Shown here: one piece after another, positions 38,105 to 41,100 of the stretch
Position numbering within the stretch: the first letter of the stretch is position 1
Layout: every line of letters begins with the position of its first letter
Source: Escherichia coli
GTDB taxonomy: Bacteria > Pseudomonadota > Gammaproteobacteria > Enterobacterales > Enterobacteriaceae
Assembly (NCBI RefSeq): GCF_050920415.1
Contig: NZ_CP169309.1
DNA length: 64,000 nucleotides
Strand: one strand, 5' to 3'
Made by a program: the position numbers

Positions 38105-41100
38105 TGATCAGGTGCTGCATGACGTGGCGATTCAAAAGCTCCCGGTTCTGTTCGCCATTGACCGTGCGGGTATTGTCGGTGCTGACGGTCAAACCCATCA
38201 GGGCGCTTTTGATCTCTCTTACCTACGCTGCATTCCGGAAATGGTCATTATGACCCCGAGCGATGAAAACGAATGTCGCCAGATGCTCTATACCGGCTAT
38301 CACTATAACGATGGCCCATCAGCGGTGCGCTACCCTCGCGGCAACGCGGTAGGCGTAAAACTGACGCCGCTGGAAAAGCTCCCGATTGGCAAAGGCATTG
38401 TGAAGCGTCGTGGCGAGAAACTGGCGATCCTCAACTTTGGTACGCTGATGCCGGAAGCAGCGAAAGTCGCTGAGTCGCTGAACGCTACGCTGGTCGATAT
38501 GCGTTTTGTGAAGCCGCTTGATGAAGCGTTAATTCTGGAAATGGCCGCCAGCCACGAGGCGCTGATCACCATTGAAGAAAACGCTATTATGGGCGGCGCA
38601 GGCAGCGGCGTGAACGAAGTGCTGATGGGCCATCGTAAACCAGTACCCGTGCTGAATATTGGCCTGCCGGACTTCTTTATTCCACAAGGAACGCAGGAAG
38701 AAATGCGCGCCGAACTCGGCCTCGATGCCGCCGGTATGGAAGCCAAAATCAAAGCCTGGCTGGCATAATCCCTACTCCACTCCTGCTATGCTTAAGAAAT
38801 TATTCATAGACTCTAAATAATTCGAGTTGCAGGAAGGCGGCAAACGAGTGAAGCCCCAGGAGCTTACATAAGTAAGTGACTGGGGTGAACGAATGCAGCC
38901 GCAGCACATGCAACTTGAAGTATGACGAGTATGGCAGGAGTGGCAGCATGCAATACAACCCCTTAGGAAAAACCGACCTTCGCATTTCCCGACTTTGCCT
39001 CGGCTGTATGACCTTTGGTGAGCCGGATCGCGGTAATCACGCATGGACACTGCCCGAAGAGAGCAGCCGTCCCATCATTAAACGCGCGCTGGAAGGCGGC
39101 ATAAATTTCTTTGATACCGCCAATAGTTATTCTGACGGCAGCAGCGAAGAGATCGTCGGTCGTGCACTGCGGGACTTTGCCCGTCGTGAAGACGTGGTCG
39201 TTGCAACTAAAGTGTTCCATCGCGTTGGTGATTTGCCGGAAGGATTATCCCGTGCGCAAATTTTGCGCTCTATTGACGACAGCTTGCGACGTCTCGGCAT
39301 GGATTATGTCGATATCCTGCAAATTCATCGCTGGGATTACAACACGCCGATCGAAGAGACGCTGGAAGCCCTGAACGATGTGGTAAAAGCCGGGAAAGCG
39401 CGTTATATCGGCGCGTCATCCATGCACGCCTCGCAGTTTGCTCAGGCGCTGGAACTGCAAAAACAGCACGGCTGGGCGCAGTTTGTCAGTATGCAGGATC
39501 ACTACAATCTGATTTATCGCGAAGAAGAGCGTGAAATGCTGCCGCTGTGTTATCAGGAAGGCGTAGCGGTGATTCCGTGGAGTCCGCTGGCGCGGGGACG
39601 TCTGACGCGTCCCTGGGGAGAAACCACCGCACGACTGGTTTCCGATGAAGTAGGAAAAAATCTCTACAATGAAAGCGACGAAAATGACGCGCAGATAGCA
39701 GAACGGTTAACTGGCGTCAGTGAAGAACTGGGGGCAACGCGAGCACAAGTCGCGCTGGCATGGTTGTTGAGCAAACCTGGCATTGCCGCGCCGATTATTG
39801 GTACTTCGCGGGAAGAACAACTTGATGAATTGCTGAACGCGGTGGATATCACCTTGAAGCCGGAACAGATTGCTGAACTGGAAACGCCGTATAAACCGCA
39901 TCCGGTCGTAGGATTTAAGTAAATTTCGCTTTTCACCCATTTTATCTGCTGAATTCCCCATCGTCTGCGATGATGGGGACAACGTACCTCCCATCATCTT
40001 CTGTAACCATAATCCACCTCTGCAAGAGAAATTCTTGGTGAATGAGTTTGCAGCTATTCATCATCTTCATCCCTTTGAGCGATTTTTGATAGTTTCTCCA
40101 GGTAATATCCCCTAAAACTGTCTTATTTAGTCAATGTAAGAGGATTACAATCATGATGAAAACCATTTCCAGCCAACCTATCCGGTTTTCTGATGTACCG
40201 GTTGAAGATTTAATAAAATCAACGAAAAGAGATTACAATAAAAATTTTATTGAAAAACTATGGGACATAATTTGTGATTTTTTTCTATACACTGATAAAC
40301 AAAAGGCATTTAAATCAATTAATAAATACATGAATACATTAAGTATTGGAAATGAACGTATAGAACCGGATCCCAACTTTAATATAGATGCAAACTCAGA
40401 TTTAGACTCATATTTAAATCTGGATTTTAATCTCCTCTCGCCCAAACAGAAGCAGACCACGCTTTGTTGTTTCTGGAAGAAAATAGCCTCTACATTTCCA
40501 GAGCCATACAACACTACGTTCAAGCATGAGATTATATTTTCTGATAACCAAAATAGTTTGGTAGTCACTGGAACTATCTCTGTTATGAACGAGGTAGTAA
40601 ATATATATTCTATCAAATTAGATAAGGATAATAATGGAGTTGTCGATTTCAGCGGCCTATATTTAGGACACAGTAATATTTCCAATATGAATATGGAAAA
40701 CTGTATCTTCTCCAATGTCAACTTCGAACATACTTATTTTGATGACGTCAATTTTACAAAGGCGAATTGTACAAAAGCTAATTTTAACAGTTGTAGATTT
40801 ATGAAATGCGATCTAACAAATATGAATTGCACTGGCGCAATTTTTGATAATGCGGTGATATATGGTAAAGAACCTGAGATGCAATATCCAGAAGGAGATC
40901 AAATAATACAAAGGATAACTTATCAAAAAACACATGGGAATGAAACGAAAGGGATGATTCTAACTAACTGCTCCTGTGTTAAAACCACTTTCAATTGGGC
41001 AGATTTATCAGAAAGTGATTGCCAAAAGGTGGACTTTAGCGAGGCTAATCTTTCAAACACTATTCTTCCTGACATCGTCAGGATGAAAGGCACGAAACTT

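What the first reader, a model, noticed from the sequence alone, without database searches (positions are those of the whole stretch)
38854..38885. Nested palindrome in the dxs-yajO spacer
CCCCAG-GAG-CTTAC-ATAA-GTAAG-TGA-CTGGGG has outer arms CCCCAG/CTGGGG enclosing an inner CTTAC/GTAAG dyad, about 65 nt upstream of the yajO ATG. It is not followed by a T-run, so it does not look like a simple terminator. It is a candidate operator or structured leader.
Basis: seen in the sequence. Interest (0 to 1): 0.2.

Follow-up and report, generated by a model that had tools for sequence, protein, structure and literature searches.

The report
ERIC repeat between dxs and yajO
The palindrome is the conserved centre of a well-known 127-bp mobile repeat (an ERIC element) that sits between dxs and yajO in about half of E. 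coli strains, so it is an ordinary, already-described feature and not a gene-specific control site.

Summary
The palindrome at 38854-38885 is real. It is the central core of a full-length 127-bp ERIC/IRU element (38807-38933). It matches 42 of 44 bases of the joined ERIC1R/ERIC2 primer sites and is 86-91% identical to published ERIC sequences. The exact 32-mer recurs at a median of 5 places per E. coli genome, and the whole element at a median of 10.

At this site the element is present in 2,843 of 5,425 complete E. coli genomes. The rest have a clean empty site 125 bp shorter, and 75 of 80 other Enterobacteriaceae species lack it. It is therefore an insertion, not a conserved operator.

It landed at a TA/TG dinucleotide in the loop of a conserved hairpin that buries the yajO Shine-Dalgarno sequence. 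A different ERIC subtype inserted independently at the same spot in Phytobacter/Kosakonia.

Published K-12 data show the region is transcribed on both strands:
- a strong Rho-associated RNA 3' end lies 5 nt past the composite hairpin;
- an antisense start site lies inside the right ERIC end;
- a hot spot of RNase III-derived double-stranded RNA covers the element.

"Operator" is rejected and "structured leader" is partly right. Already known; low interest.

The parts
38807..38933 (+). Full-length 127-bp ERIC/IRU/RU-1 element, including the flanking TA (38807-8) and TG (38932-3). The mRNA (+) strand carries the strand on which the ERIC2 primer reads 5'->3'.
   Evidence: Gap-free alignment to the published E. 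coli consensus (109/127 identical) and to Salmonella SeRU-1 (115/127). Dispersed at 52,609 places in 5,425 genomes.
38854..38885 (.). The nested palindrome of the finding, which is the central conserved inverted repeat of ERIC.
   Evidence: The exact 32-mer occurs at a median of 5 places per E. coli genome.
38848..38891 (+). The 44-mer equal to the reverse complement of primer ERIC1R followed by primer ERIC2.
   Evidence: 42 of 44 bases match. Primer sequences are from bioRxiv 10.1101/2020.06.30.180257; the pair appears together in 246 papers.
38810..38831 (+). Left outer arm of the ERIC hairpin (terminal inverted repeat region).
   Evidence: 77% complementary to 38909-38930 and paired in the minimum-energy fold.
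38909..38930 (+). Right outer arm of the ERIC hairpin (terminal inverted repeat region).
38807..38808 (.). Left copy of the duplicated target dinucleotide (TA).
   Evidence: Empty-site strains read TTCA-TG-GCAGG. Filled strains read TTCA-TA[ERIC]TG-GCAGG (this window) or TA...TA (K-12).
38932..38933 (.). Right copy of the duplicated target dinucleotide (TG here, TA in K-12).
38769..38785 (+). C-rich, G-poor tract just after the dxs stop codon, with a composition like a Rho loading site.
   Evidence: 55% C, 12% G and 2% A over 81 spacers. The Rho loading role is inferred.
38777..38790 (+). 5' arm (anti-Shine-Dalgarno, CCACTCCTGCTATG) of the conserved basal hairpin of the native spacer.
   Evidence: Folds of the filled and empty alleles. 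CUCCUG/CAGGAG is invariant in 69 of 69 distinct spacers, and outer pairs covary.
38930..38943 (+). 3' arm of the basal hairpin. It contains the yajO Shine-Dalgarno AGGAG (38936-38940), and its first 4 nt are the ERIC right end.
38948..38950 (+). yajO start codon. Position 38948 corresponds to the K-12 Term-seq RNA 3' end at 438135(-).
   Evidence: coordinate mapping.
38921..38936 (-). Position matching the K-12 antisense start site (38921) and its junction -10 region (38928-38933, with TG at 38935-6). K-12 reads TGcTATACT; this window reads TGcCATACT.
   Evidence: Thomason antisense TSS 437,386(+) and Conway antisense transcript 437,387-437,951, as tabulated in PMC7373196. K-12 sequence. The +776 offset between genome versions was verified.
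38792..38821 (+). Weak promoter-like site TTAAGA-18-AATAAT spanning the left junction, with the -10 inside ERIC.
   Evidence: 9 of 12 consensus match only. No TSS data were found.

Best explanation
The palindrome is the conserved centre of one copy of ERIC (enterobacterial repetitive intergenic consensus; also called IRU or RU-1), a 127-bp non-autonomous mobile repeat (MITE). This copy inserted at a TA/TG dinucleotide in the dxs-yajO spacer.

Shown:
- It sits in the loop-proximal part of a much older hairpin, conserved across the family, that pairs an anti-SD (CUCCUG) with the yajO Shine-Dalgarno sequence.
- It is a presence/absence polymorphism within E. coli.
- In K-12, which carries it, the region is transcribed on both strands. 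An abundant RNA 3' end lies 5 nt past the composite hairpin. Transcription reads through more when Rho is inhibited. An antisense RNA starts inside the right ERIC end. RNase III-derived duplex RNAs pile up on the element.

Inferred: the element has no dedicated function. Because it is co-transcribed and self-folds on top of the basal stem, it leaves the SD-sequestering helix intact and enlarges it to a structure of about -81 kcal/mol. 3'->5' exonucleases probably trim Rho-terminated dxs transcripts back to this structure, which would set the 3' end of dxs mRNA. In K-12-type alleles, the right junction (TGc-TA-TACT) probably supplies an extended -10 for an antisense RNA that pairs with the dxs 3' end and is cut by RNase III.
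For: Identity as ERIC:
- 42/44 match to the ERIC1R(rc)+ERIC2 primer sites.
- Gap-free 127-nt alignment, 85.8% identical to the E. coli consensus and 90.6% to SeRU-1.
- Median 10 copies per genome; other copies sit at ybhI-ybhJ, upstream of gyrA, and yeiS-preT.
- Stable hairpin, z = -7.3.
- End-to-end but sub-threshold match to Rfam V_AS5, whose consensus has an ERIC-like core.

Insertion:
- 2,843 of 5,425 genomes are filled; the rest are exactly 125 bp shorter with clean junctions and a flanking dinucleotide duplication.
- 75 of 80 species have an ERIC-free spacer of 54-85 nt.

Basal hairpin:
- 86.6% of cells are paired, 3 pairs show double changes, and the core is invariant. RNAalifold predicts the same stem.
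- Both alleles keep the stem.

Transcripts:
- xseB-ispA-dxs-yajO is listed as an operon.
- Term-seq 3' end at yajO +1: 38,352 reads, Rho score 2.89, intrinsic score 1.03.
- A yajO leader+ORF reporter is more than 2-fold up in rhoR66S.
- Two other K-12 ERIC copies have 3' ends 4-8 nt after the core palindrome.
- dsRNA cluster S-43 maps to window 38728-38914, with an antisense TSS and duplex reads inside the ERIC.
- K-12 has TGcTATACT 7 nt upstream of that TSS.
Against: - No experiment separates the ERIC's contribution from that of the basal hairpin, which exists without it. Half of E. coli strains do without the element, so any effect is dispensable.
- The 3' end could come from endonucleolytic processing instead of exonuclease trimming.
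- The antisense promoter assignment rests on a sequence match plus published TSS tables read second-hand. The consensus scan did not call it, because there is no good -35.
- The window strain has CATACT, so the antisense promoter may be weaker or absent here.
- The target duplication is imperfect in this strain (TA...TG), and E. coli empty sites read TG, not TA.
- I could not read the primary ERIC papers (Hulton 1991, Sharples & Lloyd 1990, De Gregorio 2005, Wilson & Sharp 2006). The A/B orientation rule and the catalogue entry for this copy are therefore unverified.
Confidence: 0.85

Rival explanations
1. The palindrome is a DNA operator, a dyad-symmetric binding site for a transcription factor that controls yajO.
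For: It has dyad symmetry and lies upstream of yajO.
Against: The same 32-mer occurs about 5 times per genome next to unrelated genes. It is absent here in about 48% of E. coli and in 75 of 80 related species. It lies inside an operon transcript, 62 nt upstream of the ATG, with no convincing promoter around it.
Confidence: 0.02
2. It is the intrinsic (Rho-independent) terminator of dxs.
For: It is a very stable hairpin downstream of the dxs stop codon, and a strong RNA 3' end maps just past it in K-12.
Against: There is no U-tract and no terminator-like site. The published intrinsic-terminator score is 1.03, below the cutoff of 3, while the Rho score is 2.89 and the site is flagged as a significant Rho termination region. 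The reporter is Rho-sensitive.
Confidence: 0.03
3. It is a purely neutral passenger: an ERIC copy tolerated because it self-folds inside a loop, with no measurable effect on dxs or yajO RNA or protein.
For: It is polymorphic within E. coli at about 52:48 and absent in most relatives. The basal SD-sequestering stem forms with or without it. An internally deleted remnant exists in one lineage (L038).
Against: In K-12 the antisense TSS and the most abundant RNase III duplex reads lie inside the element itself. Other ERIC copies coincide with RNA 3' ends. ERICs alter neighbouring mRNA levels in Yersinia, according to reviews of De Gregorio 2005.
Confidence: 0.3
4. The functional unit is an ERIC-derived antisense or small RNA gene (like Vibrio V_AS5) whose product regulates dxs by pairing with it and triggering RNase III cleavage.
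For: There is an end-to-end Rfam V_AS5 match. Published tables list an antisense TSS and a 564-nt antisense transcript. dsRNA cluster S-43 ranks 4th among clusters overlapping protein-coding genes.
Against: The V_AS5 score is 52.5 against a gathering score of 96, and the match is on the sense strand. No phenotype or target effect has been shown. The -10 differs in this window (CATACT). The element is absent in half of strains.
Confidence: 0.1
5. It is a dedicated structured leader (riboswitch-like or attenuator) that evolved to regulate yajO.
For: It is highly structured, lies in the region treated as the yajO 5' UTR, and that region is Rho-sensitive.
Against: The conserved regulatory-looking part is the basal anti-SD hairpin plus the C-rich tract, not the palindrome. 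The palindrome-bearing insert is a repeat that is absent in most taxa. No Rfam family passes threshold.
Confidence: 0.03

Closest known systems
ERIC / IRU / RU-1 (enterobacterial repetitive intergenic consensus; Sharples & Lloyd 1990, Hulton et al. 1991)
   Same: It is 127 bp long and has the central conserved inverted repeat that gives the ERIC-PCR primers. It is an imperfect palindrome that folds into a long RNA hairpin, has TA-type flanks and an intergenic transcribed location, occurs in multiple dispersed copies, and is polymorphic between strains.
   Different: Nothing essential differs. This copy has 18 differences from the E. coli consensus, and its right flank is TG instead of TA in this strain.
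Rfam RF02818 V_AS5 (Vibrio antisense RNA AS5)
   Same: There is an end-to-end match to the 129-nt model, with the same long hairpin and a CCCCA...UGACUGGGG-type core. My inference is that the family is a transcribed Vibrio ERIC relative.
   Different: The score is 52.5 bits against a gathering score of 96, so this is not a member by Rfam's criterion. The genus is different, and the match is on the sense (mRNA) strand.
REP/BIME elements of E. coli (Higgins et al. 1982)
   Same: These are intergenic, co-transcribed palindromic repeats whose RNA hairpins block 3'->5' exonucleases and set mRNA 3' ends within operons (established knowledge).
   Different: REP units are about 35 bp, have an unrelated sequence, and are mobilised by a different mechanism (RAYT/TnpA-REP). 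They are not MITEs with terminal inverted repeats and TA duplication.
Correia/NEMIS elements of Neisseria
   Same: These are MITEs with a TA duplication that are co-transcribed. They are RNase III substrates and can carry or create promoters at their ends.
   Different: The sequence is unrelated and the host is different. Here, RNase III cutting of the hairpin itself is not shown; the duplex reads are sense/antisense pairs.

Membership tests
ERIC/IRU/RU-1 | Unit length of about 127 bp | tested here: met
   38807-38933 is 127 bp and aligns gap-free to two published 127-nt ERIC sequences.
ERIC/IRU/RU-1 | Conserved central inverted repeat (the ERIC1R/ERIC2 primer sites) | tested here: met
   42 of 44 bases match at 38848-38891.
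ERIC/IRU/RU-1 | Overall sequence similarity to the family consensus | tested here: met
   109/127 identical to the E. coli consensus and 115/127 to SeRU-1. 92-94.5% identical to copies at other E. coli loci.
ERIC/IRU/RU-1 | Imperfect palindrome whose transcript folds into a long stem-loop | tested here: met
   -57.8 kcal/mol with z = -7.3 on the + strand; -42.7 kcal/mol with z = -4.4 on the - strand.
ERIC/IRU/RU-1 | Multiple dispersed copies in intergenic regions | tested here: met
   52,609 places, median 10 per genome. Examples are ybhI-ybhJ, upstream of gyrA, and yeiS-preT.
ERIC/IRU/RU-1 | Insertion with duplication of a TA dinucleotide | tested here: inconclusive
   The filled-minus-empty difference is 125 bp plus a duplicated dinucleotide. 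K-12 has TA...TA, this window has TA...TG, and E. coli empty sites have TG. Citrobacter sp. MGH106 has TA at the same spot, and the Phytobacter copies have TA...TA.
ERIC/IRU/RU-1 | Mobility shown by presence/absence between related genomes | tested here: met
   2,843 of 5,425 E. coli genomes are filled, and 75 of 80 species are empty.
ERIC/IRU/RU-1 | RNase E site in the right terminal repeat and an orientation-dependent effect on upstream mRNA (De Gregorio 2005) | not tested
   The primary paper is not held, so the A/B orientation of this copy could not be assigned. I know this feature only from reviews.
Rfam V_AS5 (RF02818) | Score at or above the curated gathering threshold (96 bits) | tested here: not met
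   52.5 bits.
Intrinsic terminator | GC-rich hairpin followed directly by a U-tract | tested here: not met
   No site was found. The published intrinsic-terminator score is 1.03, below 3.
Locus-specific operator | Dyad conserved at the orthologous promoter and not repeated at unrelated loci | tested here: not met
   It is absent in 75 of 80 species and in about 48% of E. coli, and repeated about 5 times per genome.

The most novel reading that the evidence does not exclude
The ERIC insertion is not neutral. It is a strain-variable switch on the two DXP-synthase genes. Landing in the loop of a conserved, Rho-coupled anti-SD hairpin would enlarge the structure that sets the dxs mRNA 3' end. In K-12-type alleles its right junction would create an extended -10 (TGcTATACT) that drives an antisense RNA across the dxs 3' end. 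That would account for the unexplained 'New AS' RNase III dsRNA hot spot S-43 of Huang et al. 2020, a paper that never mentions ERIC. Independent capture of the same loop TA by another ERIC subtype in Phytobacter/Kosakonia would then reflect either a structure-guided target preference or selection.
Probability: 0.2. Interest if true: 0.4.

Novelty: already known. Interest (0 to 1): 0.15.

Why it matters
For the genome scan, this is a false lead. A striking palindrome turns out to be the signature core of a repeat family described in 1990-91 and used worldwide for ERIC-PCR typing. Recognising it stops it being annotated as an operator or riboswitch.

The context has modest value. It shows cleanly how a MITE can be tolerated inside an operon, by inserting in the loop of an existing regulatory hairpin and folding on itself. 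It also links three published but unconnected K-12 observations to one mobile element that half of E. coli strains lack: a Rho-associated 3' end at yajO +1, an orphan antisense start site, and a top-ranked RNase III dsRNA cluster. Because dxs is the flux-controlling step of isoprenoid precursor synthesis and a common engineering target, strain differences at its 3' end could matter in practice. That remains untested.

Tried and rejected
- An Rfam scan with permissive thresholds gave only the sub-threshold V_AS5 match and a chance-level DicF hit (18.7 bits, E = 0.34, at 39094-39135).
- The terminator scan found nothing in either the window or K-12.
- RefSeq annotates nothing in the spacer.
- The primary ERIC papers (De Gregorio 2005, Wilson & Sharp 2006, Sharples & Lloyd 1990) and Thomason 2015 are not held. 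The A/B orientation, the published list of K-12 ERIC copies and the sense-strand TSS data could not be checked.
- PMC5371410 appeared to report an RNase III-left hairpin '5' of yajO'. Reading the paper showed this is a typo for yajQ (panE-yajQ site, 444573), so I discarded it.
- My first spacer-extraction script used the wrong dxs frame. I redid it with tblastn.
- An independent count of empty junctions is confounded, because the tool joins the two half-matches that flank the ERIC in filled genomes. I rely instead.
- Splitting filled genomes into TATACT and CATACT alleles by identity band was only approximate. Both alleles are common, and K-12-type occupies roughly ranks 1 to between 1,063 and 2,126.
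- The first ERIC-PCR paper I opened did not print the primers.
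Full report
**1. The observation**

The 32-nt sequence CCCCAGGAGCTTACATAAGTAAGTGACTGGGG is at 38854-38885 as reported. 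Its two 14-nt arms are 79% complementary around a 4-nt loop. It lies between the dxs stop codon (38766-38768) and the yajO ATG (38948-38950), 62 nt before the ATG. No T-run follows, and the terminator scan finds nothing.

The palindrome is only the tip of a larger structure. Arms at 38810-38831 and 38909-38930 also pair. The 146-nt stretch folds at -57.8 kcal/mol on the + strand, z = -7.3 against shuffles, and at -42.7 kcal/mol, z = -4.4, on the - strand.

**2. What it is**

The core resembled the ERIC-PCR primer sites from memory, so I tested that.
- The primers are printed as ERIC1R 5'-ATGTAAGCTCCTGGGGATTCAC-3' and ERIC2 5'-AAGTAAGTGACTGGGGTGAGCG-3', and the pair occurs together in 246 papers.
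- The reverse complement of ERIC1R joined to ERIC2 matches window 38848-38891 at 42 of 44 positions.
- Delihas 2007 (PMC2759123, Table 1a) prints the 127-nt E. coli ERIC/RU-1 consensus of Wilson & Sharp and a Salmonella copy.
- The window's - strand aligns to both without gaps over exactly 127 nt, 38933 down to 38807. Identity is 109/127 and 115/127.

The unit is dispersed:
- A 130-nt query finds 52,609 places in 5,425 of 5,426 complete E. coli genomes, median 10 per genome, almost all chromosomal.
- The exact 32-mer palindrome alone occurs at 22,216 places, median 5 per genome.
- Other copies sit between ybhI and ybhJ, upstream of gyrA after a racemase gene, and between yeiS and preT.

Rfam has no ERIC family. 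The only hit is an end-to-end but sub-threshold match to Vibrio V_AS5 (52.5 bits against 96). Its consensus has an ERIC-like core, so I infer it is a transcribed Vibrio relative. Reviews describe ERIC as a 127-bp MITE with terminal inverted repeats, a TA duplication and stable RNA hairpins.

**3. It is an insertion, not a conserved site**

A 361-nt query spanning the spacer is fully covered in 2,843 of 5,425 genomes. In the others the match spans 236 bp, which is 125 bp shorter. A right-junction query gives the same 2,843.

Alignment of filled strains (this window, K-12) with empty ones (O157, FDAARGOS_1297) shows clean junctions:
- empty: ...TTCA-TG-GCAGG...
- window: ...TTCA-TA-[ERIC]-TG-GCAGG...
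- K-12: TA...TA

It returned 80 loci, one per species.
- 75 have an ERIC-free dxs-yajO spacer of 54-85 nt, so the empty state is ancestral.
- E. albertii carries the element with a 78-bp internal insertion.
- Phytobacter diazotrophicus, P. ursingii and Kosakonia sp. S29 carry a different ERIC subtype (core CCCCAGGAGCATAGACACCTATGTGACTGGGG). It is at the equivalent TA, in the same orientation, flanked by TA...TA. Congeners lack it, so I read this as an independent second insertion.
- One MAG (L038) has an internally deleted remnant.

**4. The site it landed in**

The native spacer is itself a conserved structure. In empty strains it folds as a 14-bp stem, CCACUCCUGCUAUG / CAUGGCAGGAGUGG, at -28.9 kcal/mol. 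The 3' arm contains the yajO Shine-Dalgarno AGGAG.

Across 69 distinct ERIC-free spacers:
- The six pairs CUCCUG/CAGGAG are invariant or nearly so.
- Three outer pairs change on both sides while staying paired (CG/UA; GC/GU/AU/UA).
- 86.6% of cells pair, against 34-52% when the partner column is slid by 1-3 positions.
- The loop varies freely in sequence and length.

RNAalifold predicts the same stem independently. Upstream of the stem, directly after the dxs stop codon, is a tract that is 55% C and 12% G. That composition is typical of Rho loading sites, which is an inference.

The ERIC inserted two nucleotides into the 3' arm from the loop. In the filled allele the basal stem still forms and the ERIC hairpin stacks on it, giving -80.9 kcal/mol, z = -7.2.

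**5. Transcript evidence (K-12, which carries the element)**

Window position x corresponds to U00096.3 coordinate 438277-(x-38806). U00096.2 coordinates are 776 lower, which I verified from the gene tables.

(a) xseB-ispA-dxs-yajO is treated as one operon.

(b) Adams et al. 2021 (PMC7815308):
- They map a Term-seq 3' end at 438135(-), which is window 38948. That is the A of the yajO AUG, 5 nt past the basal stem.
- It has 38,352 reads, a Rho score of 2.89, is flagged 'significant Rho termination region: Yes', and has an intrinsic-terminator score of 1.03.
- A Rho termination region is called at 438058, which is window 39025.
[quoted passage not shown] Its forward primer starts at window 38776, so the whole hairpin and ERIC are included. 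It is more than 2-fold higher in rhoR66S.
- The authors note that such 3' ends are usually produced by 3'->5' trimming of Rho-terminated RNA.
- In the same tables, two other ERIC copies have 3' ends 4-8 nt after the core palindrome, at 127845(+) and 3071314(-).

(c) Huang et al. 2020 (PMC7373196):
- They list p19-captured, RNase III-dependent dsRNA cluster S-43 at 437,393-437,579 in U00096.2, which is window 38728-38914.
- At 10,669 RPM it ranks 4th among clusters overlapping protein-coding genes, and it is typed 'New AS'.
- Their tables give a Thomason antisense TSS at 437,386(+), which is window 38921 on the - strand, inside the right ERIC arm. They also give a Conway antisense transcript at 437,387-437,951, and a Dornenburg antisense TSS at 437,493 that was sequenced once.
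- Sense/antisense duplex reads lie in both ERIC arms. The sense read AGUGAAGCCCCAGGAGCUUACA, the left half of the finding's palindrome, has 79,229 reads.
- The aceF-lpd ERIC also yields duplex reads.
- The paper never mentions ERIC.

In K-12 the - strand reads TGcTATACT, ending 7 nt before that TSS. This is an extended -10 assembled from the basal stem (TGC), the duplicated TA and the ERIC terminus. The window strain has TGcCATACT. The consensus scanner does not call this site because there is no good -35, so the promoter assignment is an inference.

**6. Mechanism**

Shown:
- the element is an ERIC;
- it is an insertion;
- the basal hairpin is conserved;
- both strands are transcribed;
- the 3' end lies at the foot of the structure;
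- readthrough depends on Rho;
- RNase III-derived duplex RNAs accumulate on the element.

Inferred:
- the SD-sequestering stem and the C-rich tract couple poor yajO translation initiation to Rho termination;
- exonucleases trim back to the composite hairpin;
- the ERIC is tolerated because it folds on itself inside the loop;
- the right junction provides an antisense promoter.

Nothing isolates the ERIC's own contribution, and half of E. coli strains lack it. The most likely status is therefore a mobile repeat with incidental RNA-level side effects, not a dedicated regulator.

**7. Comparison, novelty and score**

All sequence-defined features of ERIC are met. The TA duplication is imperfect in this strain. 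The RNase E/orientation property could not be tested because De Gregorio 2005 is not held. It is not an Rfam V_AS5 member, an intrinsic terminator or an operator.

The family has been known since 1990-91, and this copy is in K-12, so the finding is already known. The link between this ERIC copy and the published 3' end, antisense TSS and dsRNA hot spot, and the recurrent insertion into a conserved anti-SD hairpin loop, may not have been pointed out before. These are details, and they are partly inferred. Interest is 0.15.

Noticed in passing
window 38769-38790 and 38930-38943 (and the 69 spacers of alignment A3): The native dxs-yajO spacer is a conserved RNA hairpin. An anti-SD CUCCUG, invariant in 69 of 69 spacers, pairs with the yajO Shine-Dalgarno sequence. 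Outer pairs covary, the loop is hypervariable, and a tract of 55% C and 12% G precedes the stem. It looks like a translation-coupled, Rho-dependent attenuator for yajO. I found no description of it in the literature.
   Followed up: yes
L003 ~504-581 (E. coli GPEC606), L006 (E. albertii), L088 701-778 (yeiS-preT spacer): A structured insertion of about 78 bp (CAAATCCGCATGGAGCGGATTTGAACGC...GGGCCGAATAAC) sits at the same internal position (after GGGGTGA(A/G)CGA) in ERIC copies at two different loci and in E. albertii. It is found in 648 of 5,426 E. coli genomes, usually once each. From memory, insertions within ERIC were noted by Sharp in 1997; I did not verify this.
   Followed up: partly
L027, L032, L037 (spacers of 186-187 nt); L038 (85 nt): A second ERIC subtype is inserted at the equivalent loop TA, in the same orientation, in two Phytobacter species and one Kosakonia species. 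Their congeners lack it. L038 carries an internally deleted remnant (TTACTC|GAAGTAAGACGAGTAATA).
   Followed up: partly
L020 (Salmonella enterica subsp. diarizonae) and L023 (Citrobacter koseri) spacers: The hairpin loops contain TGACGGGTATA and AACGGGTATA. These match the right terminus of the E. coli ERIC consensus (ATGACGGGTATA), although the spacers are only 56 nt long. They may be relics of an older insertion, or chance matches.
   Followed up: no
window 38792-38821 (+): A promoter-like site, TTAAGA-18-AATAAT, spans the left ERIC junction with its -10 inside the element. A transcript from it would lack the anti-SD arm. This is only a 9/12 consensus match, and I found no TSS data.
   Followed up: partly
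window 38932-38933 vs K-12 L001 3127-3128: The single difference between this window's ERIC and the K-12 copy is TG versus TA at the right target duplication. It falls in the first base of the -10 hexamer of the K-12 antisense promoter candidate (TATACT versus CATACT). Both alleles are common among filled genomes.
   Followed up: partly
window 38876-39922 (+): The mechanical ORF list extends yajO by 24 codons upstream, to a GTG inside the ERIC right half. RefSeq starts yajO at the ATG at 38948, which has a proper AGGAG 7 nt upstream.
   Followed up: no
K-12 127845(+) and 3071314(-), outside the window: In published Term-seq tables, the ERIC copies near aceF-lpd and pgk-fbaA have RNA 3' ends 4-8 nt after the core palindrome. 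This suggests the ERIC core hairpin generally marks RNA 3' ends when transcribed in this orientation.
   Followed up: partly
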